Source: Cyanidioschyzon merolae
Taxonomy: Eukaryota
Assembly (NCBI GenBank): GCA_000091205.1
Contig: AP006497.2
DNA: 64,000 nucleotides
Strand: one strand, 5' to 3'
A model generated the notes under the pieces. It was not told where the DNA came from. It ran no database searches and saw only the letters and a program-made list of their open reading frames with translations. The position numbers and the translations under genes were made by a program. Shown one piece after another: positions 1 through 23,478 of the stretch (positions are counted from its first letter, which is position 1; each line of letters opens with the position of its first letter).

Positions 1-18
1 GCCCATTCGGACCTGTTC

Positions 19-1281: not shown

Positions 1282-1608
1282 TGAAACTAGACCGCAAGCG
1301 TTCCATGCAGTACAGATTGCTATAAACAAGGAAGCTCGTTGCTATGGAATGTCCATCGAGTCGGCGCGAGCGTCGATAATCTCGCTGGGGGCCTCATCAT
1401 TCATATGCAATCCCTGATTTTTCCCAAGCGAGCAGTGCTCCAATGCCACACACGCGATGGTCACTCGGTGTGATACCACAGCCATTCCGTTGGTAAGGAA
1501 GGATTCCTGTGCGCCCGAGCGGCTTCTCTCGGCACTCTATAACAAGCAAAAAGCTCGTGCCGGCTCGTAGCAGGGGCAGCGATGTGCGCTTCGCCACCAT
1601 GGACCGCT

Positions 1609-3747
1609 TCACAGGGTCAGCGTCGTCCGCTCCGTATCCGTCTCGATCAAACCGTCGTCCTCAAATGCCGCCTGACCTAGCAGATTGGTCTCGGTCAAGT
1701 GATCCAGCTCGGGAATGTCGGCCATGCCGCGTGAAACCCGGATTCGGTGGAGCATGTCCACAATCTTCGGATGCAGATGTTTCAACGCAAGCTCACGTCG
1801 TGGATCGTCGCGCTCCCAGCTGCGAAAAAATGGACCAGGAACCCGCAGTATTCCATTCTCAATATCATCCAAACAGTAGTCAAGGGTGAATACCCGATAG
1901 AAGTACTCTCCAAAGAAGCGATTATCCCGAAGGCCGCTTCGCACTGGCGCCCCGTGGACCATTCTAACGTGGATGAACATCACATTGTAGAGAACGACCC
2001 AAAATCTGATTTTCGCGTGATCATCTGTTAGCGTTCGCGGATCCGCTGACTGCAACTGCGACGCCGCGAACAAATACTCCTCGCTCGGCAGCTTTCGATG
2101 CTGCATGCATTCGCGGCGAATACGTTGCAGCAGCGATTCAACCAGCTCAATGGCACTTGCCAGAATCGGGTTCCCGGTAAAGTCGGAAGCAAGGTTCAAG
2201 ACCCGTCGCGCAGGCTGTCGCCATTTCTCGTGTGCAGCAAAGAGCTCTTTCGCTCCGGCGTCCTGGAGTGCCTGGGGCTCGCGTGTTGCCCGGCGATGGG
2301 CATGGGTGCCGCGCGGCCACCACGAGTTTATCGCTCGGGTCACCCGGCGAAAGCCCTCGGCCGCGTGTCCTGCACTAGAGGCGGCATCGAAAGACAAAAA
2401 ATCTCGCTTTTCGAATGCATCGGGCCCCAGAAGCTTACTCGCATCTACACGGTGCAAATGACGAAAGTCGATGCCTTTGAAGAAAGGATGCAACTTGAGT
2501 GCACGCATCGTAATGCGTTGGGCTGGATCCTTGTTGAGAAGCTTCTCCACAAGGTCTCGACCCGAACTTGTCGGAAGACATGACTTGGGGAACGCAACGT
2601 CGTCTTTCAAGATACTTTGAAAGAGTAAGTAATCTGTTTCGCCACGGAACGGGAGCTCGCCGCCACACAGCATCTGGTATAGGACGACACCGAGCGCCCA
2701 GAGATCGCTCTCGAACCCGCCTCCTGGTCGTTCTCTTCGGAGCTGCTCTGGTGCTAGATAAGCGAAAGTACCAACAAAGGAATCGTAACGATGTTTGTCC
2801 TGCGGCCGCGGAGACCGCCCCGCCAGTTCGTCATCCGGTGTTTTGCCCAAAATGGCGGCAACGCCGAAGTCTGCAAGCTTACAGTGGCCCTTGTTCCCAA
2901 TGAGAATATTGTGTGGCTTCAAATCGCGATGGACGATGCCGTTTTTGTGAATCAAATCGACCGCGGACACAATCTCTGCAAAGTAGAAGCGCGCTGCATC
3001 AAGGCTCAAGGCGCCGACATGATTCCCACCGCTCGGAGCCGCCCCGTTCGGCTCACGCTTCTGGAATCTGTCTCGATGCGACGGATGCGGCGTTTCGCTT
3101 GAAGCGCGCCTACGAGCGAGCAGGCGCGCCAGGTCACCGTGTGGGCAAAGCTCTATAACCATATAGAGAAAGTTCTCATCCTCCAGAATAGCTTTCAGCT
3201 GCACGATGTTTGGATGGCCCAGTCCCACTTGTAAACAAATCTGCTCTGTTCGCAGGGGGAGCACCTGCTCATTCTGCTCTGCCAAAGCTTTCGAGATAAC
3301 TTTCACCGCATACTCCCTCCCGGTCGGAAGGTAAGTAGCTCGCAGCACCCGCGAGCATGCACCCTCTCCTATCAGTTCCGTCGCTTTGAAATCAGCGCGC
3401 GATGCACCCTGTAGCTCAAGAGGCGGAACGCCAGGCAGCAGGGCAATGAAATGACGGCGAGCATTGCGCTCGCCGTCGGTATGCCAGGAGTGGCTGTCCG
3501 CTACTGGGGGGCTTGTTTTGCTCGAGACTTCCGGGACCGGCGGCTGATGCGGTAGCATTTGGTCTGTCTCTTTCTCAGATTCGTCCCGAGAATCTTCGAA
3601 GCACACAACAGGCTCCGGTTTAGCGGATGTGTCCACAGGGAGACCGGCCGCGCAGCCACCCTTGATGCCTCGCTCGAGTTCGGCAAACCAACTTTCATCC
3701 ACTGCCCAGGAGGGCGTCCGGCGCTCCCGGCGCCACGTACTCATCAT
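1609..3747 (-). CDS. PDK1-like Ser/Thr protein kinase with a C-terminal DUF547 domain
   Basis: The kinase motifs GEGACSRV...YAVKVISK, HRDLKPHNILI, DFG, SFVGTFAYLAPE and DLWALGVVLYQ are present. The C-terminal lobe (DYLLFQSILKDDVAFPK...RDLVEKLLNKDPAQRI) closely parallels PDK1. The C-terminal ~200 aa contain the DUF547 signature (IRFWVVLYNVMFIHVRMVHGAP ... FFGEYFYRV ... DDIENGILR). Confidence 0.8.
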   Translation of the reverse strand: MMSTWRRERRTPSWAVDESWFAELERGIKGGCAAGLPVDTSAKPEPVVCFEDSRDESEKETDQMLPHQPPVPEVSSKTSPPVADSHSWHTDGERNARRHFIALLPGVPPLELQGASRADFKATELIGEGACSRVLRATYLPTGREYAVKVISKALAEQNEQVLPLRTEQICLQVGLGHPNIVQLKAILEDENFLYMVIELCPHGDLARLLARRRASSETPHPSHRDRFQKREPNGAAPSGGNHVGALSLDAARFYFAEIVSAVDLIHKNGIVHRDLKPHNILIGNKGHCKLADFGVAAILGKTPDDELAGRSPRPQDKHRYDSFVGTFAYLAPEQLRRERPGGGFESDLWALGVVLYQMLCGGELPFRGETDYLLFQSILKDDVAFPKSCLPTSSGRDLVEKLLNKDPAQRITMRALKLHPFFKGIDFRHLHRVDASKLLGPDAFEKRDFLSFDAASSAGHAAEGFRRVTRAINSWWPRGTHAHRRATREPQALQDAGAKELFAAHEKWRQPARRVLNLASDFTGNPILASAIELVESLLQRIRRECMQHRKLPSEEYLFAASQLQSADPRTLTDDHAKIRFWVVLYNVMFIHVRMVHGAPVRSGLRDNRFFGEYFYRVFTLDYCLDDIENGILRVPGPFFRSWERDDPRRELALKHLHPKIVDMLHRIRVSRGMADIPELDHLTETNLLGQAAFEDDGLIETDTERTTLTL

Positions 3748-4951
3748 TTCGAGCTAGGCCGCTCTCACCACCGACGAAGAATCGAAAAGTTTCCCCGAAG
3801 CTGGAACTCTACAGAAAGCGTTGGCGCCCCGCGCGCTTCCCCAAAAGCTTGCGCCGAGCTCACCCCGCAGTTGCGTTCCAAGCAGCAACCTCCGGCACAA
3901 ACGAGGGCTCCCTGCTGACTTCCGACCCTCTGGGCGCGAGCCCCAATGGAGGCGACGCTCAATTCGAGTCCCTAAGTCCTTATTGTCACGCACGCGTGAT
4001 GCACCACAGAAATCGGCGGTATACTCCACCAACCAATCACGTATTCAACATTGGAGGAAAAATGCCACGCATACGCGGACGTCCCGCGCTGCATGCGTGC
4101 CGCGAGTGGCGCACGCACATTCGACTGAACGCACCCGATATCTAGCGGACACGTGTCCATATTGCTCGAATCGGCGATGTTGCCGACGGCACGTCGACGG
4201 GCATCGGTGAGCAGCAGGCACCAGCGCATGCTTGGGAATGTTCGCTGCGCTACACGCTGAGCCATCGGAAGCGAAGAGGTATATAGTGCGACAAAAGTGT
4301 GAAAGCAGCGTGTACCAATGGTTTGAAATACCTCTCCGGATTATAAAATGTACAGAACGCAGTTGATGCGTCAGGGCAAACATGCGTTGACTTTACAAAG
4401 TTGGTAGATTGTTGTGTGCTTTTACGCAGAGATATATAGTATGGTGACTTGGTAGCTCCGTGTTAAGGAGTGGATGTTCGTGTCCTCACAAGGCAGATAT
4501 TCAGTTTGATTTATGCACGTCCACACAACAGCAGCCGAGTGGGCGCAGAGCATGCAGCGGCGGCGGTAGCGGTTGTCAAAACTGCCGCACTCGATTTCTT
4601 GTCGAGCATCGTTTGGGATCGATAAGAGCGCCCAGATGCGGTCGCTTCTGGCGAATGGAGCTTTCGCGCTGCGTACGCACGCGGAAGCGATAGGTAACCT
4701 CGATTTAGGTGCTGGAACGGCCGGGAAAACTCAACAAACTCGGGGGCTCGGCGTACTTGCCAGCGTTTGACTTGTAAAGCCACCGAAAGAAAACCAGAAG
4801 GACCTACACGAAACGTTCTAACCGTGGCCTGTGCCAGTGCACAAGCTCGAGTCACTCGAGAACCTCTACATGCAGTGCATCGCGGCAAACGAGTTCGGAA
4901 GCTTTTTCAAGACATGAAGCACCTCAACTGGATTCGCTTGTGGTACGATCC

Positions 4952-7122
4952 CTGACACCGATTGATGGAGCACCGTGGTCGTTAGCCAGGTGCATGGGAA
5001 ATTCGGTCTCGATGGATCCAGGTATTACTGGATTCCCTCTGCATTCTCGGTATTTGCACCGTTCCACAGCCTTGCTCCACGCGTGGTCCGAATGTCCTCT
5101 CTGCTGCGCTGATTTTTTCATCGCAAGTCATCTGCGTATCGGAGCCATGCCACAGTGCGTCCGAAACGATGCCTGCGGACGCTCCTGGGGCACGACATCC
5201 TTCCGCATGTCGATCGAGCCGCTCAAGTCCAGGTTGAGCGTGTGTTTGCGCGCACGGTTGCTCCTGGGGCACTCCACAGGGAGCAGCTCGCATGCTAGTG
5301 CCTCGCATTCGGACGTTCAGGCATGTTTCCGCACTCCGTACCGTGCATTTGTCTCTATTTGACGCCCCTGTGCTCTGCTTGTTTCGGCGTACGGTTGTAT
5401 GCATGATGAGCGTAGATGCCGTTCAGGAGGCATCGACGAGCCTCGAAGAGAATCGATTCGTGAACGTGTGTGACGCTCTCGTCGACGGAGCAGGAGCGCA
5501 GCCTTTGCGCGTGAGCGCACGTCCAGCGTCGTGCGCTGCTACCAGACGACCCGAGATGTTAGTCGTGATCGTGGCGAACATGTTGAACGGGGTGGCGAGT
5601 GCGCGCTTCTTCCCGCCGACCAGCGGAAGCTGCTTGGGAGCCCCAGCTCAACCGCGTGGTCCCGTGTCCTCCTGCCGAAAATCCTTCTCATGAGCCGTGT
5701 GCATACTCGTGTATGTACTGGTGCACAGCACCCCTTGTATCTGTACCCGCTTTTCTGGGCCTCTGCGGCGGCGGTACATTGCGCAAAAGATGCACTCTAC
5801 AGGGACGCACAGACGGTTGTTGCGGAGAGTTTGGTACTCTTTGGCACTGGCGCTGTCGGTGTTCCTGTCGCTGAGCAGCATGGCAGTGCATCGAAGGATG
5901 CTGGAAAGCCCGTGTGTGTGTGTGTGTGTGTGCGTCGCTGGTCCGCCGATTAGGCCGCATTGCATCCGCGGTGCCGAACATCACGCTTCATGTCGCATGC
6001 GGGTTTGGTCGAGCAGGTCTAGGCCAGTGTGGACATCCGGCACACTTGCACCCGGAATGCCGTCGAACTGCTTGCTCGACGAGGCGCTTCCGTGCAAGGA
6101 CAGCGAAACGAGTATTTCTCGAGTGAAGCGTTACACGCTCATTCATGACGCTCTGTGTCGTTGCGCGTGTCGGATACGAACGACTCGCCTACTGATGCGT
6201 GATCCTCGAAGCGGTGTAGAAGCATTAGGAAGGCGGATTTGGCCCGATGGAACCAGGGAGCATCGGCTAGCACGTGGCGCACCTGAACGCCTATGCCAGC
6301 TGCGTACGCCTTGACCACGTATCAGAGATGGAAAGCGACGCTGCCCCTGAACAGGACAGACGCGTACGGGAAGCAGAAGCCAGGAAGCGTGCATCGACGA
6401 AGAGTGCGCTGTTGAGCGATCCAGTCTGGTTGGTGATTCACAGGAGACCGCATCCTTGGATGGTCGTTCGCGTTGATGTCGACGGCATGCTCGTTTGACT
6501 GTTCTGAGCAGACCGAGGCTTGCCCCTGTTTGCGTATCCATTGTGGAAGTCGACCAAGTCTTCTTGCGTGGAGCCTCGTCGAGCGAGACGATCTCTGGCC
6601 CCTGCCACGCTCCGCCCTCGCGTTCCAGCATGACGCCGATGGTGTGGTATGCATCGTGCGTCTGTCTCCCCGAGAAGCGTCCTTTCTTTCTTTCGTGCTT
6701 CGTCCATGGTGTCTCTTCGTCACTGTTCGTATCAACGGCACGCGGAATTCGGAAGCTCCGGCTTCTCTGAAAGTACTTCCTGCACAACGCGTAGAATGGG
6801 ATGGATTGACGAGTACTGGGTTGCATAGGCAGCGTTTTCATCAATTTTGTTTACGGGTTATGACATTCAGAGCAGGGACTTGCACGGTATTTGGTCCAGT
6901 GGCTATCGCAGATTGACTGCATTGGACAAGCACCGCCGTTCTTTTTCGCGAGCTTGCACTCGCAGCATCACGGCATTCCGTAACCTTTCTCCAGAGCGCA
7001 GGATACAATCCTCTGTATTGAATCGCTGTGCGAGAAACAAAAACAATACGGGTGTGCTGGCGCAGCTTCTCCAGAATTCACTGGTCTGAGCGTAACGCCC
7101 GAAAGGTGTTGGAAGCAGCGAG
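4952..7122. repeat. Copy A of a ~2.17 kb dispersed direct repeat, non-coding, containing a (GT)n microsatellite at ~5914-5936
   Basis: It is near-identical to 18771..20939, with an offset of ~13,817-13,819 bp. The six-frame ORFs inside the two copies are the same except for scattered substitutions in every frame. The first base pairs form the stop codon of ORF 4767..4955. Confidence 0.85.
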
Positions 7123-7438
7123 TCGCGTCTCGTCTCGACACTATTCCTTCCCAGCACCTGGATCGCATCGGAAACCGATCACGCAACGCGTTCGCCATCG
7201 TACCAGCAACGAGACGCCCTAGAGGCACGCGCACCATCAACGCATCACGATGATCAGCGTACGTACATCGAAAGCGCCTCTGCCCCGCCATTGTCCCTGT
7301 CTCCCAGCAGGTGTGGCGCTGCCGTCTGGCCGCATCGCTGGCGCGCAAAGCGCTGCATTCGCCAGCGCTGGGACACGCTGCCGATCCCGCCATCTTGGCA
7401 TTTCGAATCCGTGAGCGCTGGGGGCCGCGCGTTCCCGG

Positions 7439-8881
7439 GTGCTCTCGTTCCGGTTCCGTAGTCGCTTACGGGATATGCCTGTGGGCAGCGGGGTAGAACC
7501 CCAGGCGGCTGCGTTTGAAAGTCTGCAGCCGCCCTGGCTGGGCTCGAAACCTCCACATACACAATCTACGCGAGATGACTTAGAAGCTGTTATGACAGAA
7601 CAGAAACTGGAGTTGGAGAGCGCCCAGAGACAACGTTTAGCTCGTTTGGAGGAGCGAGCGCGAAACCAGGATAAGGTTATCGCTCGGTTACAGAGAGAGC
7701 TCTATGAAGCTCGAAGGCTTATTGAGGAAAGAAAAACCAGTCCAACACTGGTGGACGCAATCCGGGTACCCGCAGGTGTTCAAACGACAACGTCCAGCGC
7801 CGGCAAACAACACGACGTCGCATCGCTCGCGCTGCAACTTGAGGCGGCCAAAGAGGCACTCGCAGCTGAGCAGAGAAATAGGCAGGAAACTGAGAGGCTC
7901 AGTGAACGATTGGCGAAATCTTTTGACTCGTATCTGCAGGAGATGGAGCGACGTCAGCGCGCTCAGGAGCAGGAATACCGTCGCCAGGAGATGCACCTTC
8001 GAGGAGAGCTTCGGCGTTGCAACATGGCAAAGGCGCACCTGGAGGAGCAGCTCGAGCTGGAAAAAGAGTCACTCCGTGCGGCCCAGCAGGAACTCCGTGG
8101 GCTGCGCTCCAGGGTGGAAGGCACCATAGAGGACATGAAGGCTCGCCAGCTGCAACTGGAAGAGGGAAAGCGGGAGCTCGAGCGAAATCTGAATAAACTC
8201 TCCGATCAGCTTGAGAAAGAGCGCACTCTCTTTCAAAGCGAGCGCGAACGTTTTCAACAGGCGTCCCGTGAGGCGTACACGATGCTGAGCGAATCCGCCG
8301 CCCGGAGTGATGAACTCGAAAAACGACTCGCTGAGACTCAAGCGCAAATGCAACAGCTTCGAATCGAATTCGGCAGTCAGTTGCAGGCTGAGGTAGCACG
8401 CTCTGCTGCACTTGAGCGCGACCTTGACAGATATCGCCAGCGAAATCGACAGTTCGAAGACCGTATTGACGAGCTACTTACCGTGAATCAGAAACAGGCG
8501 GAGGAACGCGCCTCCCTTCGGGCGGAAATACGACGACTGACCGACGAACTGGTACGTGTTCAAGCACGCAGCACATTCGCTGAACGACGCCTTCAAGATC
8601 TGCTTCTGGATGCATCAAGCCCGCAAACGGAGGCAAACCTGCTCCCGGGAGATACAGGTGACGTCCCGACGCCATTGTCGGGCAGCATCATGAAAAAAAC
8701 GTCTCCCTCAAGCGTCCACAAGCTTCAGAACATCGAATCGTCCCTTCGTGGCATTTCCGAAGAAAATGCAGCGTTCCGAGCCAAGGTTCGCGCCTATCTG
8801 GACAAGCGAACTCCCGAGCCGCGCAGTCGTTCACTCGCTGATGATACGCATACAAGATCTCAGAAGGGAACGCCTCCATAG
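7439..8881 (+). CDS. Coiled-coil protein (E/R/Q/L-rich heptad-like sequence), function unknown
   Basis: This 480 aa ORF is dominated by charged heptad-like sequence such as LQLEEGKRELERNLNKLSDQLEKERTLFQSERERFQQ, and no enzymatic motif is present. Confidence 0.5.
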   Translation: MLSFRFRSRLRDMPVGSGVEPQAAAFESLQPPWLGSKPPHTQSTRDDLEAVMTEQKLELESAQRQRLARLEERARNQDKVIARLQRELYEARRLIEERKTSPTLVDAIRVPAGVQTTTSSAGKQHDVASLALQLEAAKEALAAEQRNRQETERLSERLAKSFDSYLQEMERRQRAQEQEYRRQEMHLRGELRRCNMAKAHLEEQLELEKESLRAAQQELRGLRSRVEGTIEDMKARQLQLEEGKRELERNLNKLSDQLEKERTLFQSERERFQQASREAYTMLSESAARSDELEKRLAETQAQMQQLRIEFGSQLQAEVARSAALERDLDRYRQRNRQFEDRIDELLTVNQKQAEERASLRAEIRRLTDELVRVQARSTFAERRLQDLLLDASSPQTEANLLPGDTGDVPTPLSGSIMKKTSPSSVHKLQNIESSLRGISEENAAFRAKVRAYLDKRTPEPRSRSLADDTHTRSQKGTPP

Positions 8882-9481
8882 GGTTTTCACGTGCATCGAC
8901 AGACACAAGTAGGTGCAGTTTCCGCGCTAAGCGGCTTCATCGCATTGGATCTTTCGAGGTAGGCGCGTGAGCGCTTCGAATTCCGTCGGACTTGCTTTAC
9001 GAATCGAAGTGGATCCGTATGGCAAGCGCCCATGCATGCCTCTCTGGGTCAAGAAGAAGCTGCCATGCGCTGCATGCTCTTGCAGCCAATATTCCATGAC
9101 GCTGCTTTATGGGCAAGAATTTTCCGCCGCTTACACGATCCAACGCCAATGCCAGCATCAACAACGGCTTGTCCGTAAGTTTACAACAGTGTCTGGACTA
9201 TGCTTACATGGTGACAACGACGGGAACCGTCGTCGTCGCGCCGCAACGCTGCACCTGACTCGCGTGCCCTACAGAGACAGAGAGAGAGAGAGAGACAGCG
9301 CGCTTTTCGCTCCTCACCACCAGGTCAATAACGTGCATGCCTATCGCACGCGTGCAGGCCTGGTGATCGCAGGTGCAGCACCGACAAGCCAGCTTCCTAT
9401 CGCGTGTGCTGGCCATCCGCGAGGTGCTATTCCCGATTAAACAGCACCCGATCTCAATAAAGTCTGAGTACCCATTCCACG

Positions 9482-12235
9482 TCACGTCTCTGGAGATGTG
9501 TCCGGCAGGAGCGCAGATGCCCGCAGGCGCCACACAGCTCTGTTGCCATCACCGGATTCGCTCAGATAGGCGACAAGCTTGAGCACTGCTCGGAACTCGG
9601 CAGCGTTGATGCCGCGTACGCGCAAGGAGGACTTAAAGGCGCCCGCAAGCTCCGCAGTCGTCGCCCCGGGCCCGCGTCGCTGTAAATACGACGTAATCTC
9701 GTGCACAAGAGACTGCAGCTTTCGAACCTGCTCCTCATCGTCATCGACCGCTTCGCGTTCGTGCAGACACTGAAGCAGTGCCTGTGACGCAAGTTTCGAT
9801 GAAGGTGCTCGGTTCGCTGTCGCTGTCGAGCAGAGCCACGGCGCCTGTGTCGTTGGTTCAGGTAGCGGGGTTGTCGGCGTCTGGTGGTTCAGTGAACGAC
9901 GCAGTGCCGCCAGCGCTCGTTGGGCGACTCGATCGGCCTCGGCCTGGAGCACCTGTCGATCGAATGCGGTCCGGGGATGCTTTCCTGATACCTCCAGCGT
10001 GGAGTCGTGGTTGAAGACTGCCGCCACTTGATCAAGCGCACGGGCATCGTTGCCGTCCAGTAACTGTCGCATGATCCGCATCTCCGCTGTTAGCTGTTCA
10101 TTCTGCTTGGCATCTAGCTTACAATGATTATCGGCATCAGCATCATCACCAGCTGCTGCTGCGACGCTCACCGGAGCGAGCGACTCCCGTGCAGTCGCCT
10201 GAACCTGAACAAAATCCTCGTCTGTAGCGTCTTCATGCAGCGTCAGAAGCTCGTGTATATCTTTTCGTTTGAAAAATCGGCGCTTGCGAGGATCATGCAA
10301 AACCTTTTCAGAGAGAAACGTTTTGAAGATCTGGCGGTGGTATATCTTCTCCTCGATGGTGCCGCGCGTCAACAGGCGATAGACGACAACTGGGCGCTCC
10401 TGGCCGATGCGCCAGGCCCGTTCGCGGGCCTGGGTATCGGACGCCGGGTTCCAGTCGGGATCGTAGATAATCACGCGATCTGCTCCGATTAGGTTGAGAC
10501 CGAGCCCACCCACGCGAGTGGTCAACAGGAAGGCGAAAATCGAGCTATCGTGATTGAAGCGGTCTACCAACTCGGCTCGAAGTGCAACATTCGTCTCACC
10601 GTCCATGCGCAAGTACGTGAACTGCCCCTTGTTCAGCGTTTTCTCGAGCAGAGTGAGCATGCTACGCGTCTGCGAAAAGATCAGCGCTCGATGATTCGTC
10701 TCGCGGAGCTGGTGCAGCAGGCGATCCAAAGCGAGGAGCTTACCCGAAGTACTCTGGCGCAGGAGCTTCCTCTCTGAGCCGGATACATGGAGATCAGCAG
10801 CCGCGAGCCGCGGATGGTTACAAATCTTGCGCAGGGTCGTGATGATTGGCAGTAAGTTCAGCTGTCCATCTGCGGCTCGTTCGACGTCAATGGCATTAAG
10901 GTAGTTCTGGTAGATCCGTCGCTGCTCGGGTGTCAGTCTGCAGAGGAGAACATGTTCCTGTTTTTGTGGTAACTGGAGTGCAACGTCCCTTTTCAAGCGT
11001 CGCAAAAGATAGGGCGCAATCAGATCTCGCAGTGTCGATGCACAGCGATACGCGATGTGAACCTGGGCGGGCGTTGCGTTCGCGAAACCGCCTAGAGATA
11101 TGGGTATGCTGAACTCCTCCTCAAAGGACTGCAATGTTCCGAGCCTGCCAGGGTAAATAAAATCAAAGAGACTCCAGAGCTCACAAAGACGGTTTTGCAA
11201 GGGTGCACCGGTCATCAGAATGCGATGTACCGTGTTGAGTTGTTTGCATACTCGTGTGACCTCTGCTTCGGGATTCCGAATGCGATGGCCCTCATCCAGA
11301 ATTACATAGTCCCAACGTCGGCTGGTAAACCAACTCGCATGAATGCGAAGGTGTTCGTAATTCGTAATGAATATAACTTGCGATGGACACTGATTCGGCT
11401 GGAGCGCGGACTCCCCGATACCCAGCACGGCGTGCAGGACGCGCACTTGCAGTCGAGGCCACCAGGTTTCCAATTCTCGTCGCCACTGGTCCAGAACAGT
11501 GACAGGTGCCACCACTAGAATCGGGCCTTTCAAGAGTCCCGAGTAGTCGAGCGCTGCGAGAAAAGCGATGATCTGAACAGTCTTTCCTAACCCCATTTCA
11601 TCGCCCAGAATCCCACCGGTACCCTGTACATGAAGCGACCAGAGCCAAACAAGCCCCTCCTTTTGGTACGGAAACAAACGCTCATACAGAGACCGCGGAA
11701 GCCAAAGTCCAGGTGCAAGTTCCATAGCTGCCTCAGTTCCTACGGCATGACCTGCTTCGAGCGTACGCGCAAGCTGCTGCGAAGCTAGTGCGTCCGGCGA
11801 GCCCGTTGGTGTAAACGAAACTTCTCCGTTGCGATAACCGTCGGTGCTCGCAAGATCTCCGAGTTCATGAACTTGTTCAGCTTCAAGCTCAACCAGCTCG
11901 CTTCTAAGTTGTTCCAAGCGGTTGTGCAGGTAGTGGAGTCGTCGCCGCGCCCGGCCGCTAGCCGCAACGCTGCCCGCGTCACAGGCGTCGTCGCTGCGCT
12001 GAGCCCGCTGCGACGACGTGCCCGCTCCGTGCTCGCTTCCGAGCACCTGCTGGAGTAGCTCATTCGTTTCTTGCTCTAGCACAAGGATTTGCTGTCGTGT
12101 TTGCTCGATGAGATCGCGATGTGCTTTCTGCACAATGTCAACAACGAGTTTTCCCTCGTCCACCACCTGCACTGCAGGATCAGTGACCAGTGCATCGCTC
12201 CTCGCGACGTACGACGTTGAATTCGGGGCAGACAT
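9482..12235 (-). CDS. SNF2-family DNA-dependent ATPase, ERCC6/CSB/Rad26-like
   Basis: Motifs LFPYQKEGLVWLWSLHVQGTGGILGDEMGLGKTVQIIAFLAAL and DYVILDEGHRIRNPEAEVT are present. So are ILMTGAPLQNRLCELWSLFDFIYPGRLGTLQSFEEEFSIPI and IIYDPDWNPASDTQARERAWRIGQ. These are nearly collinear with the human ERCC6 helicase core. Confidence 0.85.
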   Translation of the reverse strand: MSAPNSTSYVARSDALVTDPAVQVVDEGKLVVDIVQKAHRDLIEQTRQQILVLEQETNELLQQVLGSEHGAGTSSQRAQRSDDACDAGSVAASGRARRRLHYLHNRLEQLRSELVELEAEQVHELGDLASTDGYRNGEVSFTPTGSPDALASQQLARTLEAGHAVGTEAAMELAPGLWLPRSLYERLFPYQKEGLVWLWSLHVQGTGGILGDEMGLGKTVQIIAFLAALDYSGLLKGPILVVAPVTVLDQWRRELETWWPRLQVRVLHAVLGIGESALQPNQCPSQVIFITNYEHLRIHASWFTSRRWDYVILDEGHRIRNPEAEVTRVCKQLNTVHRILMTGAPLQNRLCELWSLFDFIYPGRLGTLQSFEEEFSIPISLGGFANATPAQVHIAYRCASTLRDLIAPYLLRRLKRDVALQLPQKQEHVLLCRLTPEQRRIYQNYLNAIDVERAADGQLNLLPIITTLRKICNHPRLAAADLHVSGSERKLLRQSTSGKLLALDRLLHQLRETNHRALIFSQTRSMLTLLEKTLNKGQFTYLRMDGETNVALRAELVDRFNHDSSIFAFLLTTRVGGLGLNLIGADRVIIYDPDWNPASDTQARERAWRIGQERPVVVYRLLTRGTIEEKIYHRQIFKTFLSEKVLHDPRKRRFFKRKDIHELLTLHEDATDEDFVQVQATARESLAPVSVAAAAGDDADADNHCKLDAKQNEQLTAEMRIMRQLLDGNDARALDQVAAVFNHDSTLEVSGKHPRTAFDRQVLQAEADRVAQRALAALRRSLNHQTPTTPLPEPTTQAPWLCSTATANRAPSSKLASQALLQCLHEREAVDDDEEQVRKLQSLVHEITSYLQRRGPGATTAELAGAFKSSLRVRGINAAEFRAVLKLVAYLSESGDGNRAVWRLRASALLPDTSPET

Positions 12236-14943
12236 TGTTCGTGAAACGTACGACCAAATGCGTTCACAACCATAAGTCCACTTCTAATGCATAGTTCTCG
12301 GGGAAGACTCTTTTTTTACGTTCTTGTTTCGTACCGCACACCAGCGCCCTGTTCACGATCGAGCGTCGAGGGCGCGCGTCGCAACTGGAGAACGGCACCG
12401 ATTCGCGTACCGCATGGGGGTATCTGACGCGTCCACAGCGCTGTGGTATGGAGAGTTTGCATGTTCGTGATGTGCATCGCTTCGGATCGGTCATGAACTG
12501 TGGAAGAGTTATGAATTGGTTCAGCGGAATAGATTACCATTTGGATTTGATTAAAAAAAGCGGTGAAACCTGCGCACGCTTCACGGATTGGAACGGGGAA
12601 ACGAGCGAGAAATACGTGCTGCAGCGGGAGCGCGCTCTCCGCGACAGCCTCTGCTGGACGACGTCGATGGTTGCTTCAGAGCTTGCTGCGAACAGCTGGG
12701 AGTACTTTCAATCATTGTCTGGTGATTTTGGTTCGTCATTCACGGTAGGGTCTTGTTGGACGGCGCAAACTTGGACCCGCAATGCCACGGATGAGCCGCG
12801 GGAGTGTCGACCGCGTATCCAGGTGCCGGTGAGGGTATACCCAATGGAATGCTGCAGCTCGAGCTGTCATGATTGCCCCGCATACACTATCAAGATAAGA
12901 TCCGCCTCAGCGCGGTGACTTTGGAGCTGTATGTCTCGCTATACCCGTGTCAAATGAAAACGGGATACTGGATCGATCGCTCTGGTCCTTACCTGAGCGT
13001 TGCCCAACTTTTTCAGGCGTTTAGCCCTGAAATTCGAAATGCGATCAAAAAATTCCTATTCATTTATACCATGTCGTATGATTCTCGGTCGTCTTTTAGA
13101 CATGTCAAGTGCGACGCGGTGCCACTGGGTTTCATCGCTTCTGCTTCCTAACAAAGATTCGCAACGACGATGAGCACGGGTTCGTAAATTGCCGACGTCA
13201 TTCTACAATGCATGCGTGGAAGTCTGGATGCTTCTCGTTTCCTGAAGTGCGGTCTGCTCCAATCTTGCATTCTCCAAATGTTCGGTCTTTCTGTTCTCGA
13301 CGACGTCGTGGCCCGGCGACTTGCTTATTTGCTCATGACGCACGTTGACTGAACTTTTCGCTTCAGCGAATGATCGATTCGGTTTAGGAGACGAACCCTC
13401 CTATCTTACTGGTCATCGACGAGGCGGCATTCGACAGCAGCCTGCTGCCTCTCACATGACACGCCCGCAGACAGACCCGTCTCTTCTGTTTCCATGGAGA
13501 GAGGCCTCGTTCTCGGACCTGAATCATCCCAGCGATCGCCCGCGGTGGAGCGTACGTCAACGCTTTCCACGCAGGTAGGGTAGACGAAACGAAATTTCTC
13601 GCCCAGGTTTCCCGCCTGAGTTTTATTGCGATTTCTGATGCCATCATGATGAACATCGCGTTCCACAAACCTCGATCGAACCGAGGAGCGTGCCCGTGCT
13701 TGTGCAGCGGACTGAGCGCCTACCGAGGACTCTCGCCCGGAGGGTGCTCGATATTGTAGGGTACGGTGCCGGGCGTGGAAACGGAGGATTGCAACACCGA
13801 CAAGCATCCGTACCCGTCAAGCGCACAGCCCAAGCGGTTAGACAATCGCTGTTGCGCCGCATGGTAGAGCGCCATGCAGATTCTGTGTGGTCGACACATG
13901 CAAACACCTGACCAGAGTCGAACGTTATCCCTGCGAAGGGCATACCAAGATCGTTAGCCGAGAAGATGGAATATGGCAAGCGAAGCATAGTTCGTAATTT
14001 GTGCCTATGCATGAAATGCAGCAACAACAGCTGGAAAGCAGCAAGATCAGGAGTTCAAGGTAGCTGCCAATGGCCTTCGACTGCCAACACCAGAGCTGGA
14101 ATGCCAGGAGGAACCGTCGTCGTTAAAACAGGCGATAAGAGAGAGGAATAGGAAGCAGTCACAGAAAAAGCCCGCAAAGGCTGGTGTTGTTGATACTGGG
14201 AAGCGACCCAAACTTTAGAGCGTACGCCCGTGTCAGGTAAATGGGCCCGTCGCATTTCATTCTGACCTGGACGTGTAGCAGAAACGGATGCGCTGCTGCT
14301 CGAGTTCGATCCCGACGACGACGATGGAGGTTTCGCTATGCATCGAGCTTACCCCATCCGCAAGCGTCATCGCTTGCCTGGTCCAGCTGACTACCACGGA
14401 CACGCAGCAGCTTCAACGTGCGCTGCAGCAGCGAGGCGCCACCTATCGACGCTTGCCCAGGAGTAGTATTGCCCCGACGCCGGACTCGGGTGTGCGCCCG
14501 TGGCCAGACCCTCGAGTGCGCGCACCGCCTCCCGACACATGCCCAGGAGCAGCGGTGCCTTGTCGTTGCACGCGTGTGTGGACCCGCGCACTGCCATCCT
14601 CCTGGTCGACGGGTGCCTGATTTCCTCCAGATTCCTTCGGTGTCGAGCCATGAGATGCACAGTACGTGAGCTCGTCACGTAGGCTCGGATTCCCGGACGC
14701 GTCCAGCTACGGAATTCTCCTGACTGGCGAGACCACCGGGGAATCCGCGTCTTACGTCCAGGCCAAGTAGGCGATCTGCGCACATCCGTCGTCCAAGTGC
14801 TGCGCAGCAGGCGCATGCCCAGTCCCAGTTTATCGGTTATCGTCCCTCGAACCAGACATCGTTTTCACGAATGCAAATTCACGAGCATGCGTTTATCACC
14901 GAGCATTCGTGCGCAGAATTCATGGAAGTGTCACGAATGGAGC

Positions 14944-15450
14944 TCACGATGCACGTGAGCGAGGTTTAATCATTCCTGTCCGACGAGCGTACTCGAACAG
15001 ACCGCCGGCATCAATGACAGGCTGGATTTCACCGAGCGGCTCCAGTTCGAAACGCTGCCCGCTATTGAGATTCCGTATGCTGAGGGTCTCAAAGTCAATC
15101 ACGGCCTCATCTCCGGTCTTAAAGTGCTCAACTAATCTCGTCTTCGATACCCATGGATACAGCTCACCCGTCGATGAGCAGTTGCGGAAAAAAATACGTG
15201 CGTATGAGGTCGCGACGACCGCCTTGGCACCGGCCGCACCAAGAGCAATAGGTGCGTGCTCCCTGGAGCTTCCGCAACCAAAGTTCTCACCTGCAATAAT
15301 GATGCTATACTTTGTGGATAACTGTCCTTCTTCAACAAAACGCTCGGGATAGAGCTCTCGAGGAAGACCTTCCAACGCGTGGGAGCCAAGCAGTTGATAC
15401 TCTGCTGGCACCGATGGCAGCAAGCTCAGGTGCTCAGCGGGGATGATTTG
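14944..15450 (-). CDS. leuD: 3-isopropylmalate dehydratase small subunit (LeuD), exon 2
   Basis: The LeuD/aconitase C-terminal signature [31 protein letters not shown] is present. The exon begins with QIIPAEH immediately after a TAG acceptor, continuing the DTD|QIIP motif from exon 1. Confidence 0.85.
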
Positions 15451-15627
15451 CTAATTTGCACGTGAATAGGGTTAGTATCTGTTATACAGCCTTCATGCAC
15501 CCAGGCAAACAACTGCGTCTGCTGTTTTTAGACGATTCTCCGCCAACTGAAGCCGTCCACCCAAACCCCTGCACCGGTTTAAGAGCGGCAACCGAGTGCA
15601 AACGGCGATAATTCCACAAAACTTACG
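15451..15627 (-). other. Spliceosomal intron (177 bp, phase 0) in LeuD, GTAAGT...TAG
   Basis: On the minus strand, the canonical donor gtaagt follows codon GAC (D) and the acceptor ttag precedes CAA ATC ATC CCC (QIIP). Joining the two exons restores the universally conserved LeuD motif DTDQIIP. Confidence 0.8.
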
Positions 15628-16169
15628 TCTGTATCAATGTTATCGTGAACAACGAACACACGTCCTTGAATGTTACCCGTCTCTGGATCGCGTTTCCGAC
15701 CAACAGAGCAGACGTCCTCCATTCGAAGCGGAGCGGGCGTCTCCATTCGCACGGTAGCCCGACGAGAACAGCCCCTCGAGCGGTAACCAGCCAAACCAGG
15801 AAGACGAGGCGCGGAGCACCTCCCGAGAGCGCTGCTCCTTGCTCTGGTCCCCTGAACAACCACAGCGTTCGAAAAAACGAAAACCATTGTGAACCTTGAG
15901 CTTGTTTTCTCCGAGAACGTTCCTCCGGGTGTCGCTTCGTCCCCAGAGCGTATTGACCGTCGCGCGGGGCAGCGACACCGCGCTGCGCTGTCGCGGGAGG
16001 TCACCCGTGGAGCGCTCACACTCCGAGGCACTAGGATCGTACACCTGCTTTGTACACCAAGAGCTTGAACCGCTTTGGAGCTGGGAGCGTCCTCGGTAAG
16101 CGTCTGAGAATAGAAGACGCTGCCTTGGTATACGACGGGTGCAGTGCTCCCGAGCACCATCGCTGGCAC
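15628..16169 (-). CDS. leuD: LeuD exon 1, a long S/R/A-rich presequence followed by GRVFVVHDNIDTD; the start codon is uncertain
   Basis: The minus-strand exon ends ...GRVFVVHDNIDTD followed by GTAAGT. The ORF reads through into the intron and terminates there. The upstream ~150 aa resemble a transit peptide. Confidence 0.7.
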
Positions 16170-16274
16170 TCAAAGGGTGTCGTTTCGCACGCTAGCGTTA
16201 GGGGGGTGTCCATCGCTTGACTTGGTCGTGAGCGGGGAGCGTTCGCTAGAAAACGCTTCATTGGATACTGCTCA

Positions 16275-18773
16275 GTGCTTTCCTTCTTGAGCGCTAACAT
16301 TTTCGGAGCACGACGCACGCACAAACGGCGATCTGGAGGCTACGCAAGCTCTAGAACGGGAAACCGCTATGGAATGACGAATTCTGACCACATTAGTCTC
16401 TTTAACTTCGCTGGAAGACAAGTTCCCACGCTTTCATGCTTTTTAGGTCCGCGCGAGCGCATGTCCCAGAATCAGCGACCCCAGCGGACTGCTTTCGTTG
16501 CGTCATACGCGGGTCCGCGTGGAAGCGCTGCAGCTGTGCCGCAGCGTAGAAACGCTGAAGAACGAATACTTGTGTGCCGGATCAAGCAAGCGAGTTGCAC
16601 CGTGAATACGCATTTGCATCGAAAAGCGCCTACCCAGCTTTTGTCTGTGGAGAGCGCGAGATGGCCCGGCGGCATGCTATTCAGCAAGAGGCAACAGCGT
16701 CATCAACGACAACGAAAACGGGCGCTGGCGCTGTGCGCTGAGGCGCCACACCCCGGGAAGCCACAGCTCTTGGTACAGCGAGCCGCAGCGTTCGCTGGAC
16801 AGGCCGCTGTCCTTGGCCTGCTCTGCTATCTCCAGTTTCTTCTAGGCAATGGATCCTTCTCCATTATGGACAACACGGAACCCAAATTCGCTGTATGCGC
16901 AAAGAACATGCTTCGAACGGGGAACTGGCTCATTCCGCAATGGAATGGACGAGTTCGCTTTGATAAGCCTCCGCTTGTTTACTGGCTCCAGGCTGTCGCA
17001 TATCGTCTGTTTGGATTTACGGAAAGCGCCACGCGACTGCCGACTGCGCTAGCAGCTTGCGCGGTAACCCTCATGGTGTACTGTTTCAGCGTAGGCGCCT
17101 CCAGCGACAACATGAGAAAGCGGCAATTCAAGGGCCTGATTTCCGCCGCAGCATTCGCCTGCAGCCTCTATGCAGTCGGCTGGGCCCGAAGTGGTGTCTC
17201 CGATATGGTCTTGTGTGCATGCATCACAGCGTGTTTGGGGTGTTTCGCAGCCGCCTATATCTCGGAAACAAAAGCGACCCGTTTCGCCTGGTACATTGGT
17301 ATGTTTGCAGCTGCGGCATTGGCACTGCTCACGAAGGGCCCCCTGGGCGTTGCGCTCCCAGCCCTGATCGTGAACGTCTTCCTCGTGCTCGTCGGTCAAT
17401 GGCGTGCGGTTGTCCTTCACGAGATTCCCTGGACTCGAGGTGTTCTCCTCGCCGCTGCAATCGGTCTTCCGTGGTACATGCTCATTATCCGTGCATACGG
17501 GCTAACCTATATCAAGGCCTTCTTCGGCTATCATAATCTGGCCCGCCTGACAAGCGCTGTGAATGCGCATAGCGGCCCCTGGTACTACTATCTGGCGTGT
17601 CTTCTACTGGGGTTCCTTCCCTGGGTCGCAGCGTTACCGGTTGCACTTGTCGCTGCCTATCGTCGCTCCGGCTTCGCCGCAGCGTCGAGAAAGTCGTCGC
17701 GACGCGAGCAAATCCCCTTATTCATCACCACCTGGTTTCTGCTTACAATTTCGTTCTTCTCCTGCATCCGCACGAAGCTCTTCAGTTACATACTGCCTGC
17801 TATACCGGCTGCTGCTCTGCTCATTGGCGAATACTTCTCAGGCGTGGATCCGCGCAAGCCAGCAGACTGTGGGCGCGCAGAGCGTCTGATCACTGCGCTG
17901 GCAGTCATCATAATCATGGCTGCAATGGCGCTGCTCTGCCTGCGACTCGAATCACTCATTATCGGCAGCAGCGGAGGAGCTGGCGACCCCTGGATTCTGC
18001 GGGTCTGTCTCGAACAGGTGCGAGCTCAGAAGCTGGTCTGGCGAGGCGTTGCGCCCTGGGTGCTCGGTATCGTCGGCGTTTTGGTGACCTGTTCCATCAG
18101 CCGCTGGTATCGTTATCTGCCCACAGCTATGGCGGCAAGTTTTATGCTCTTTCAATGCATGTTCCTATTGCCAGCGATACGTGTCTGGGACCGCGCCCAC
18201 CAGCAGCCGCTTCGCGAACTAGCCCAGTGCGTTCGCAGCCTGCGTGAGCGAAGCGAGGCCGACCTCCGCACCGACCGGGTCTACATGATGGTATTTGGAT
18301 GGTGTGATGGTGTCCCCGAAGGCCAGCCTTCGGTTGTTTGGTACAGCGACTTTGATGGATGGCATTTTGCTGAGCGTCCCGAGGAGACGCTCGCAGACAT
18401 TGTGCTCATGGCACGACGCGATGATCGTGCCGAACGTGTTTGCCTCGTTTCCAGGCCAGCCGCGGACGTTGCACCAAACTACGCCAGTCTATGGTCGGCT
18501 TGCTGCGATGGAATCGCTGAAGACGACCTCCGCGACGCTAAAGATGTGCTGATCCTGGCGGATACATCGATCTGGCGGACGATTCCCGGGCAGCTGCCGG
18601 ATACCAAGGTCATCGAGCGACGAGGTCCATTTGCGCTCTATCGCGTACCGCCACGAGCGGCACTGCGAGCAGTACAAGCGATACGAAATCGTGGTGGTAC
18701 ATACGCTTTCCAACGTGATCGTCTTGACTTGAAGAGCATGGAGCCAGCTTCGAATATGAAGGAGTATCCTTGA
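16275..18773 (+). CDS. GT-C glycosyltransferase of the ArnT/PMT (GT83/GT39-like) family, polytopic membrane protein with a ~170 aa N-terminal extension
   Basis: The first periplasmic-loop signature DNTEPKFAVCAKNMLRTGNWLIPQWNGRVRFDKPPLVYWLQAVAYRLFGFTE matches the ArnT pattern D/E...R...ML.SG.W..P..NG..Y..KPPL.YWL. It is followed by about 11 hydrophobic helices and a soluble C-terminal domain. Confidence 0.7.
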   Translation: MLSFLSANIFGARRTHKRRSGGYASSRTGNRYGMTNSDHISLFNFAGRQVPTLSCFLGPRERMSQNQRPQRTAFVASYAGPRGSAAAVPQRRNAEERILVCRIKQASCTVNTHLHRKAPTQLLSVESARWPGGMLFSKRQQRHQRQRKRALALCAEAPHPGKPQLLVQRAAAFAGQAAVLGLLCYLQFLLGNGSFSIMDNTEPKFAVCAKNMLRTGNWLIPQWNGRVRFDKPPLVYWLQAVAYRLFGFTESATRLPTALAACAVTLMVYCFSVGASSDNMRKRQFKGLISAAAFACSLYAVGWARSGVSDMVLCACITACLGCFAAAYISETKATRFAWYIGMFAAAALALLTKGPLGVALPALIVNVFLVLVGQWRAVVLHEIPWTRGVLLAAAIGLPWYMLIIRAYGLTYIKAFFGYHNLARLTSAVNAHSGPWYYYLACLLLGFLPWVAALPVALVAAYRRSGFAAASRKSSRREQIPLFITTWFLLTISFFSCIRTKLFSYILPAIPAAALLIGEYFSGVDPRKPADCGRAERLITALAVIIIMAAMALLCLRLESLIIGSSGGAGDPWILRVCLEQVRAQKLVWRGVAPWVLGIVGVLVTCSISRWYRYLPTAMAASFMLFQCMFLLPAIRVWDRAHQQPLRELAQCVRSLRERSEADLRTDRVYMMVFGWCDGVPEGQPSVVWYSDFDGWHFAERPEETLADIVLMARRDDRAERVCLVSRPAADVAPNYASLWSACCDGIAEDDLRDAKDVLILADTSIWRTIPGQLPDTKVIERRGPFALYRVPPRAALRAVQAIRNRGGTYAFQRDRLDLKSMEPASNMKEYP

Positions 18774-23253: not shown

Positions 23254-23385
23254 GCTGCAGCAGGAACCAGTACGAGTTCGGACTTGCTCCTGCTGCTCCT
23301 GCTGCTGCTCTCAAGCGTCAGCCAGGAGTCTGTCTCAGCTACGCCGCTGCTTCAGGCCTGCCTGCGCTCTACGGATACCTGTGCT

Positions 23386-23478
23386 GGACATTCGGTGCCA
23401 TCTCTAAAGTTGGACATCCGATGCCATCTCTAAAGTTGGACACTCGGTGCCATCTCTAAAGTTGGACATACGATGCCA
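23386..23478. repeat. 26-bp tandem repeat, ~3.5 units (ggacatNcgRtgccatctctaaagtt), in the HisF-ThrRS divergent intergenic region
   Basis: Read directly from the sequence: units at 23386, 23412 and 23438, plus a partial unit at 23464. Each unit contains ATGCCATCTCTAAAG. The last partial unit supplies the ATG of ORF 23473. Confidence 0.9.

What the first reader, a model, noticed from the sequence alone, without database searches (positions are those of the whole stretch)
4952..7122. 2.17-kb non-coding direct repeat pair (second copy at 18771-20939) flanking an 11.6 kb gene block
The two copies are ~98-99% identical. I counted about 3 aa differences per 133-aa translated ORF, and differences occur in all frames, which indicates no purifying selection on any frame. 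They lie in direct orientation 13.8 kb apart. Neither copy has a recognisable transposase or reverse-transcriptase ORF, LTR structure or terminal inverted repeats. Each contains a (GT)n tract of slightly different length. Together they bracket the coiled-coil, ERCC6, LeuD and GT83 genes, which makes them a substrate for non-allelic homologous recombination. They could represent a non-autonomous repeat family or a recent segmental duplication of a 3'-flanking region.
Basis: seen in the sequence. Interest (0 to 1): 0.6.

Follow-up and report, generated by a model that had tools for sequence, protein, structure and literature searches.

The report
Two-copy non-coding duplication in red alga

Summary
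Window 4948-7122 (copy A) and 18766-20939 (copy B) are direct repeats of 2175/2174 nt with 30 substitutions and 2 indels, which is 98.6% identity. The window is Cyanidioschyzon merolae 10D, chromosome 15.

Neither copy shows any coding signal, Pfam domain or Rfam match. Neither has terminal inverted repeats (TIRs), LTRs, a poly(A) tail or a target-site duplication (TSD). The 10D annotation places no gene in either copy.

Independent environmental contigs carry copy A (3 independent junctions) and copy B (more than 10 contigs). I found no third context and no diverged relative, so an assembly artefact and a large repeat family are both unlikely.

In Cyanidiococcus and a second relative, gene order is identical. 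The copy A spacer there is about 2.2 kb shorter, so A is an insertion.

The first 8 nt of the repeat are the last codons and stop codon of the PMT_2 gene, at the position where the relatives also have the stop. B is therefore the source and A carries a relic of it. That indicates a DNA-level segmental duplication of the PMT_2 3' flank.

The repeat evolves at or above the neutral rate. Only 4 differences between A and B are fixed, and 12 polymorphisms are shared between them. This suggests gene conversion, although blending by metagenome assemblers could produce the same pattern.

Interest is low.

The parts
4948..7122 (+). Copy A of the 2.17-kb repeat (the derived copy). It lies in the divergent intergenic spacer between the PDK1-like kinase and the coiled-coil gene.
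   Evidence: Self-BLAST and gapped alignment. Present in environmental contig L011/L022. The A-type right junction also appears in L023 and L024. The spacer minus the repeat is 1552 bp, against 1333 and 1518 bp in the outgroups.
4948..4955 (+). Relic of the PMT_2 3' end inside copy A: ATCCCTGA, matching (T)AT CCT TGA of PMT_2.
   Evidence: 7 of 8 positions match the last codons and stop codon of PMT_2 at 18766-18773. My calculation puts the chance of such a match at about 4e-4. The stop codon position is ancestral.
18766..20939 (+). Copy B (the source copy). It starts 5 nt before the PMT_2 stop codon and covers 2166 nt of the PMT_2 3' flank, inside the convergent PMT_2 / HisF spacer.
   Evidence: Present in full in environmental contigs L001-L003, L012 and L019-L021, and in part in L004, L005, L008-L010 and L013-L015.
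5912..5932 (.). (GT)10.5 microsatellite in copy A.
   Evidence: Tandem Repeats Finder. Its length varies among strains.
19731..19749 (.). (GT)9.5 microsatellite in copy B.
16374..18773 (+). PMT_2 / ArnT-like glycosyltransferase gene (BAM81472.1, 799 aa). Its last 8 nt belong to copy B.
   Evidence: 799/799 identity to XP_005537508.1. Pfam PF13231.
1609..3747 (-). PDK1-like protein kinase (BAM81467.1), the left neighbour of copy A.
7475..8881 (+). Coiled-coil protein 'similar to myosin heavy chain' (BAM81468.1), the right neighbour of copy A. Its start codon is 352 nt from the repeat edge.
   Evidence: Its accession number follows directly on the kinase's, so no CDS is annotated in copy A.
22123..23178 (-). 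HisF cyclase (BAM81473.1), the right neighbour of copy B.
   Evidence: Its accession number follows directly on PMT_2's, so no CDS is annotated in copy B.
7123..18765 (.). The 11.6-kb unique block between the copies: coiled-coil, RAD26, two further genes including intron-containing LeuD, and PMT_2.
   Evidence: Gene order is identical in the outgroups L006 and L007.

Best explanation
This is a two-copy, non-coding, DNA-level segmental duplication within chromosome 15 of Cyanidioschyzon merolae. The copied piece is 2175 bp. It starts 5 nt inside the end of the PMT_2 coding sequence and runs through 2166 nt of that gene's 3' flank (copy B, the source). It was inserted in the same orientation 13.8 kb upstream, in the spacer between the divergently transcribed PDK1-like kinase and coiled-coil genes (copy A, derived). 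The junctions are blunt: there is no target-site duplication, no terminal repeat and no poly(A). The likely mechanism is therefore repair-mediated: a double-strand break at site A filled either by copying a nearby template or by capturing a DNA fragment. This mechanism is inferred, not shown. Since the event, both copies have persisted in all sampled natural populations. They evolve without detectable constraint and appear to exchange sequence by gene conversion. No function is implied. Where the extra DNA in the long B spacer originally came from remains unknown.
For: The pair is real, at 98.5% identity over 2.17 kb. The organism and locus are identified.

Non-coding: codon log-likelihood of the repeat ORFs is -0.2 to +0.09 per codon, against 0.12-0.19 for the window's genes. 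No Pfam hit in any of the six frames. No Rfam hit at E<=1 and no tRNA. Accession numbers are consecutive across both copies. Divergence between strains is 0.78% (A) and 1.20% (B), against 0.64-1.14% at third codon positions.

Only two contexts: every junction in more than 20 independent contigs is A-type or B-type. Searches with the 233-aa and 205-aa ORFs found only hits of 96% identity or more from the same loci.

A is an insertion: gene order is identical in Cyanidiococcus (L006) and in L007, and the kinase/coiled-coil spacer there is 1333 and 1518 bp. The C. merolae spacer is 3727 bp, or 1552 bp without the repeat.

Direction B to A: the TGA stop of PMT_2 lies inside the repeat and sits 18 codons after the FQR motif in all three species. 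Precise removal of B would lengthen PMT_2 by 42 unrelated residues. Copy A keeps ATCCCTGA.

No TIR, LTR or TSD was found, and the termini fold no better than shuffled sequence.

Gene conversion: 4 fixed A/B differences against 12 shared polymorphisms, and the A copy in L011 is closer to B copies (0.96-1.15%) than the 10D B copy is to other B alleles (1.2-1.56%).
Against: I could not search the complete 10D genome, so the count of two copies rests on indirect evidence: metagenome contexts and ORF-based searches. The metagenome scan demonstrably missed at least one short contig (L024).

The B spacer is itself about 2.6-2.8 kb longer than in the outgroups (3349 bp against 579 and 792 bp). The sequence is therefore also lineage-specific at B, and its ultimate origin, possibly an earlier insertion, is unexplained.

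No empty A site was recovered, so the pre-insertion sequence and any junction microhomology are unknown, and the repair mechanism remains an inference.

The gene-conversion signal comes from metagenome assemblies, which can blend near-identical paralogues.
Confidence: 0.7

Rival explanations
1. A low-copy non-autonomous mobile element of an unrecognised or atypical class (for example Helitron-like or tyrosine-recombinase type, which need no TIR or TSD) inserted independently at both sites in the C. merolae lineage.
For: Both spacers are much longer than in the outgroups, and the repeat has no similarity to the outgroup spacers. Both copies begin A|TC..., and a 6-bp hairpin lies 12 nt before the right end. 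These are loosely Helitron-like features.
Against: The left end contains the native PMT_2 codons and the stop codon at its ancestral position, which a transposon's own terminus would not. The 3' end is CGAG, not CTRR. The base following copy B is C, not T. The terminal hairpin is no more stable than in shuffled sequence, z=-0.5. No transposase, Rep/helicase or reverse-transcriptase remnant appears in any frame. No third copy or diverged relative was found. Nozaki 2007 (PMC1955436) lists no Helitron or LTR elements in this genome.
Confidence: 0.12
2. The pair belongs to the known 253-copy, roughly 3.2-kb interspersed repetitive element of C. merolae, which carries a truncated ORF weakly similar to the WSSV protein WSV486 and makes up about 5% of the genome (Nozaki 2007).
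For: Same genome, kilobase size, and no annotated CDS. A 64-kb window is expected to hold about 3 kb of that family (PMC1955436).
Against: The repeat has no similarity to anything else in the window, even with sensitive blastn and tblastn. A different family does show the 68-77% inter-copy similarity expected of a dispersed element: 33.7-34.0 kb, the inverted-repeat arms at 46.3-47.8 kb, 59.4 kb, and a strain-specific insertion in L002. Its total length in the window is about what the 5% family would give. Protein-level searches found no diverged paralogues. No frame has coding signal.
Confidence: 0.04
3. The duplicated unit is a functional non-coding module, such as an unannotated long non-coding RNA gene or a regulatory/terminator block, retained in two copies by selection.
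For: Both copies are fixed in all sampled populations. The sequence shows a strand asymmetry, with T in excess of A. Nozaki 2007 notes that some repeats in this genome are transcribed.
Against: Divergence between strains is at or above the neutral proxy. There is no Rfam match. Indels and microsatellite length changes are tolerated. The sequence is absent from the same sites in sister genera.
Confidence: 0.08
4. Assembly artefact: a single locus was duplicated in the reference assembly.
For: None specific. Near-identical repeats are a classic source of misassembly.
Against: The 10D genome was finished end to end (PMC1955436). The copies differ at 30 sites and have different unique flanks. Both A and B junctions occur in independent environmental assemblies, including both right junctions within one sample: L015 and L023 from ERZ27249350.
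Confidence: 0.01

Closest known systems
Low-copy repeats / segmental duplications that mediate recombination between non-allelic copies and undergo gene conversion between paralogues (as described in human and yeast genomes)
   Same: Two direct copies longer than 1 kb and more than 95% identical on one chromosome. They include unique host sequence (the end of a gene) rather than transposon termini. The pattern of few fixed differences and many shared polymorphisms is typical of concerted evolution.
   Different: Very small (2.2 kb) and entirely non-coding, in a compact 16.5-Mb haploid algal genome known for minimal redundancy. No rearrangement between the copies was observed in any contig.
The 253-copy WSV486-like interspersed repetitive element of C. 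merolae (Nozaki et al. 2007, PMC1955436)
   Same: Same genome, kilobase scale, and no annotated protein-coding gene.
   Different: Only two contexts were found. There are no diverged relatives and no similarity to the window's genuinely dispersed family. The left end is host gene sequence. Similarity to WSV486 could not be tested.
Templated or captured insertions at double-strand breaks (filler DNA copied from a nearby template, or capture of a DNA fragment)
   Same: Blunt junctions without TSD, TIR or poly(A). The donor lies close by on the same chromosome in the same orientation.
   Different: The mechanism is inferred only. The pre-insertion sequence of site A is unknown, so junction microhomology cannot be assessed.
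Non-autonomous Helitrons
   Same: No TIR and no TSD. The copies begin A|TC. A small hairpin lies about 12 nt before the 3' end.
   Different: The 3' end is CGAG, not CTRR. The 3' host base is not T at copy B. The hairpin is not above chance. No Rep/helicase partner is known in this genome. The left end is PMT_2 coding sequence.

Membership tests
Segmental duplication (low-copy repeat) | Two or a few copies, at least 1 kb long and at least 90% identical | tested here: met
   2175/2174 nt at 98.5% identity. Only A and B contexts appear in more than 20 contigs.
Segmental duplication (low-copy repeat) | The copy includes ordinary host sequence rather than element-specific termini | tested here: met
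   The first 8 nt are the last PMT_2 codons plus the stop codon at its ancestral position.
Segmental duplication (low-copy repeat) | Exact copy number in the whole genome is low | not testable with these tools
   The complete 10D genome cannot be searched here. The indirect evidence points to two copies.
C. merolae 253-copy WSV486-like interspersed element | Many dispersed, diverged copies | tested here: not met
   No other copy in the window. No diverged ORF relatives in 5.8 billion and 1.84 billion protein sets. No third junction type. Caveat: the full genome was not searched.
C. merolae 253-copy WSV486-like interspersed element | Truncated ORF weakly similar to the WSSV protein WSV486 | not testable with these tools
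   No WSV486 sequence was available. No frame has coding signal or a Pfam domain.
C. merolae 253-copy WSV486-like interspersed element | Transcribed | not testable with these tools
   No expression data are accessible.
Class II TIR transposon / MITE | Terminal inverted repeats and a target-site duplication | tested here: not met
   No TIR between the ends and no TSD at either copy.
Class II TIR transposon / MITE | Transposase, or homology to an autonomous partner | tested here: not met
   Six-frame Pfam scan found nothing at E<=1 apart from one noise hit.
LTR retrotransposon / solo LTR | Long terminal direct repeats, TG...CA ends, 4-6 bp TSD | tested here: not met
   Internal direct repeats are at most 23 nt and not terminal. 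No TSD.
Non-LTR retrotransposon or processed retrocopy of PMT_2 mRNA | 3' poly(A) or simple-repeat tail, TSD, reverse-transcriptase ORF (autonomous) or a spliced/5'-truncated mRNA body | tested here: not met
   The right end is ...GCAGCGAG with no A-tract. No TSD and no reverse-transcriptase domain. The start inside the end of the CDS would fit 5' truncation, but nothing else does.
Helitron | 5'-TC ... CTRR-3', a hairpin 10-12 nt before the 3' end, insertion between host A and T | tested here: not met
   5' A|TC is present in both copies. The 3' end is CGAG. The host base after the element is T at A but C at B. Hairpin stability is z=-0.5 against shuffles.

The most novel reading that the evidence does not exclude
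The 2.17-kb unit is an unannotated lineage-specific genetic element that entered the PMT_2 3' flank after the split from Cyanidiococcus and then copied itself (with 8 nt of adjacent host sequence) to a second site. It would be either a mobile element of an undescribed type lacking TIR and TSD, or a long non-coding RNA gene. This would make it an active or recently active non-canonical element in a genome considered almost free of transposons.
Probability: 0.1. Interest if true: 0.45.

Novelty: new member of a known kind. Interest (0 to 1): 0.2.

Why it matters
The consequences are modest. C. merolae 10D is a reference 'minimal' eukaryotic genome used for gene targeting by homologous recombination. 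A 2.2-kb, 98.6%-identical direct repeat pair flanking RAD26, LeuD and a glycosyltransferase matters in three practical ways. It is a potential source of ectopic recombination or mis-targeting of constructs designed in these spacers. It is a source of ambiguous short-read mapping. It is also a small natural test case for gene conversion between dispersed repeats in a red alga now known to have a sexual cycle. It shows that lineage-specific spacer growth in this compact genome can occur by plain DNA duplication as well as by the known interspersed elements.

Tried and rejected
1. Fungal origin, my first impression from the gene content. Rejected: the nearest proteins are from Cyanidiophyceae, and PMT_2 is 100% identical to the C. 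merolae 10D protein.

2. Hidden coding capacity. Rejected by codon log-likelihood, GC by codon position, Pfam on ORFs and on six whole frames, and the 10D accession order. Stop codons are depleted relative to dinucleotide shuffles (z about -5.6), but the same holds for every control region (z -2 to -5), so this is a genome-wide bias.

3. RNA gene. No Rfam hit at the curated thresholds or at E<=1, and no tRNA.

4. Transposon hallmarks. TIR, LTR, TSD, poly(A) and Helitron ends or hairpin were all absent or at chance level.

5. A concatenated six-frame query to the search for homologous proteins returned nothing, but it also failed to recover the known 133-aa and 232-aa ORF clusters. I treat it as a failed run, not as evidence.

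6. 'Insertion at both sites by a transposon', my working idea after the outgroup comparison. I revised it once the PMT_2 stop-codon position showed that B's left edge is native sequence.

7. Viral or prokaryotic source. Exact-pattern scans of the viral and prokaryotic genome collections found nothing. These scans have low power because only near-identical DNA would match.

8. Locus IDs or repeat annotation from the H3K27me3 paper's supplements. They hold only GO gene lists, so this was a dead end.

9. The original genome paper (Nature 2004) is not held.

10. The single metagenome scan excluded B junctions by design and returned one A contig. It missed L024, so the collection is incomplete for short contigs.

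Full report
**Observation**

A self-BLAST of the window gives one strong off-diagonal match: 4948-7122 against 18766-20939, direct orientation, 2176 columns, 98.48% identity. A gapped alignment shows 30 substitutions (21 transitions, 9 transversions), one 1-nt indel, and one GT-unit difference in an internal (GT)n tract. Similarity stops abruptly on both sides. The spacing (13,818 nt), the 11.6-kb bracketed block and the microsatellites are all as described.

**Organism**

I first took the window for fungal, but the PMT_2/ArnT-like ORF next to copy B has its nearest relatives in Cyanidiophyceae. It is 799/799 identical to XP_005537508.1 / BAM81472.1 of Cyanidioschyzon merolae 10D, on the 902,900-bp chromosome. 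That chromosome is chromosome 15, 'CMO'.

Exact look-ups give BAM81467 (PDK1-like kinase), BAM81468 (coiled-coil protein) and BAM81469 (RAD26) on one side, and BAM81472 (PMT_2) and BAM81473 (HisF) on the other. The accession numbers run consecutively across both repeat copies, so the reference annotation places no gene in either.

**Is it coding or an RNA gene?**

- A codon log-likelihood trained on five genes from the window scores real genes at 0.12-0.19 per codon and a held-out gene at 0.14. The repeat's ORFs score between -0.2 and +0.09, and no sliding window in the repeat reaches gene level.
- Pfam finds nothing in the two longest ORFs or in six whole-frame translations.
- Rfam finds nothing at the curated thresholds or at E<=1, and there are no tRNAs.
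- Stop codons are fewer than in dinucleotide shuffles, but this holds for every control region, coding or not. It is a compositional property of the genome.
- Between 10D and environmental orthologues the repeat differs by 0.78% (A) and 1.20% (B). Third codon positions differ by 0.64-1.14% and other intergenic DNA by 0.28-0.59%. There is no sign of constraint.

**Is it real, and how many copies are there?**

The 10D genome was finished end to end (PMC1955436). Hot-spring metagenomes and Logan assemblies contain C. merolae-like populations about 99% identical to 10D.

- Contigs L001-L005, L008-L010, L012-L015 and L019-L021 carry copy B in the PMT_2/HisF context.
- A 19-kb contig (L011 = L022) is collinear with window 8-18859 and carries copy A. 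L023 and L024 carry the A right junction.
- L015 and L023 come from the same sample. They share the last 185 nt of the repeat and then continue into the B and A flanks respectively.
- L016-L018 stop within 10 nt of the B boundary, outside the repeat, the behaviour expected of an assembler meeting a two-copy repeat.
- Across all contigs only two junction types exist. Every contig that spans either site carries the repeat, so no empty site was seen.

Searches for diverged relatives used the repeat's mechanical ORFs, which metagenome gene-callers do report. They found only clusters of 96% identity or more from these same loci: the 233-aa ORF, and the 205-aa ORF in an exhaustive HMMER search. Sensitive blastn and tblastn found no other copy in the window.

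Two caveats apply. The whole 10D genome could not be searched. The metagenome scan also missed a short contig that does contain the pattern.

**Relation to the known 253-copy interspersed element**

Nozaki 2007 describes 253 copies of an interspersed element of about 3.2 kb, making up 5% of the genome, with a truncated ORF weakly similar to WSV486. I could not obtain WSV486 or the annotated repeat loci.

The window does contain a different family that behaves like a dispersed element:

- the 533-nt inverted-repeat arms at 46302-46834 and 47234-47766;
- pieces at 33.7-34.0 kb and 59.4 kb, 68-77% similar to those arms;
- a strain-specific replacement at window ~13206 in contig L002.

The 2.17-kb repeat has no similarity to that family. 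Membership in the big family is therefore unlikely, though not formally excluded.

**Polarity and origin**

Gene order is identical in Cyanidiococcus yangmingshanensis (L006) and in a second relative (L007). Spacer lengths compare as follows.

| Spacer | L006 | L007 | C. merolae | C. merolae without the repeat |
|---|---|---|---|---|
| Kinase / coiled-coil (site A) | 1333 bp | 1518 bp | 3727 bp | 1552 bp |
| PMT_2 / HisF (site B) | 579 bp | 792 bp | 3349 bp | 1183 bp |

Copy A is therefore a clean insertion. The sequence is also lineage-specific at site B. No residual similarity to the outgroup spacers exists.

The left edge decides the direction. The repeat begins ATCC(C/T)TGA. In copy B this is ...(T)AT CCT TGA, the last codons and stop codon of PMT_2. 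The stop lies 18 codons after the conserved FQR motif in C. merolae, L006 and L007 alike. Precise removal of B would give a tail 42 residues longer and unrelated in sequence. Hence B's left edge is native gene sequence, and A carries a copied relic of it. A 7-of-8 match arises by chance with probability of about 4e-4 (my calculation).

A transposon with its own termini would not carry this relic. A 5'-truncated retrocopy is excluded by the absence of poly(A) and TSD. TIRs, LTRs and TSDs are absent. The loosely Helitron-like features (A|TC start, small subterminal hairpin) fail on the 3' end (CGAG), on the host base after copy B, and on hairpin stability, z=-0.5.

The best reading is a DNA-level duplication of the PMT_2 3' flank into a break 13.8 kb away. 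The repair mechanism is inferred.

**Evolution since the duplication**

Using the A orthologue (L011) and eight B orthologues, the variable sites sort as follows:

- 4 fixed A/B differences (4952, 5709, 6557, 6776);
- 7 private to the 10D A copy;
- 4 private to the 10D B copy, clustered at 6152-6193;
- 12 polymorphisms shared between the two paralogues.

The A copy in L011 is closer to B copies (0.96-1.15%) than the 10D B copy is to other B alleles (1.2-1.56%). That pattern indicates gene conversion between the copies, so 98.6% identity does not date the duplication. The event predates the divergence of the sampled populations. Metagenome assemblers can blend near-identical paralogues, so this inference needs clonal data.

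**Verdict**

The feature is a real but ordinary two-copy non-coding duplication. It has practical relevance for gene targeting and read mapping in a model alga, and low general interest.

Noticed in passing
window 46302-46834 and 47234-47766 (spacer 46835-47233); also 33742-34048 and 59434-59535: A near-perfect inverted repeat: 533-nt arms, 99.4% complementary, with a 399-nt spacer. It lies in an AT-richer spacer after an ABC-transporter ORF. The arms are 68-77% similar to pieces at 33.7-34.0 kb and 59.4 kb. This is a genuinely dispersed, diverged family, and a candidate for the 253-copy interspersed element of Nozaki 2007 or for a foldback/MITE-like element.
   Followed up: partly
L002 1-331 (JGI 3300050389, Ga0506602_000186), breakpoint at window ~13206: The first 331 nt of this environmental contig do not match the window. 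They are 69% similar to the inverted-repeat arm at 46316-46457. This suggests a strain-specific insertion or rearrangement of that dispersed family in the RAD26/LeuD spacer. A chimeric contig has not been excluded.
   Followed up: partly
L020 1-341 and L019 1-110, breakpoints at window ~23300-23322: Two environmental contigs lose collinearity in the HisF/ThrRS divergent spacer, close to a 42-nt tandem duplication at window 23385-23478. The L020 end is GC-rich and looks coding. This could be a structural variant or a chimeric contig.
   Followed up: no
window ~14944-16169, minus strand: The LeuD (aconitase_C small subunit) gene is split into two ORFs (15579-16169 and 14944-15423), so it has an intron. 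This is one of the very few intron-containing genes in C. merolae, where 0.5% of genes have introns according to PMC1955436.
   Followed up: no
window 6135-6193 / 19952-20010: Six of the 30 A/B substitutions cluster within 59 nt. Four of them (6152, 6163, 6170, 6193) are private to the 10D B copy. Possible causes are a multi-nucleotide mutation event or a short conversion tract from an unsampled allele.
   Followed up: partly
whole window: Stop codons, summed over all six frames, are depleted relative to dinucleotide-preserving shuffles in every region tested, coding or intergenic (z -2 to -5.6). Long mechanical ORFs in this genome are therefore weak evidence for genes.
   Followed up: yes
window 18774-22122 compared with L006 11993-12571 and L007 12233-13024: The PMT_2/HisF convergent spacer is 4-6 times longer in C. 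merolae (3349 bp) than in the two relatives (579 and 792 bp). The origin of this extra, apparently non-coding DNA, which became the source of the duplication, is unexplained.
   Followed up: partly
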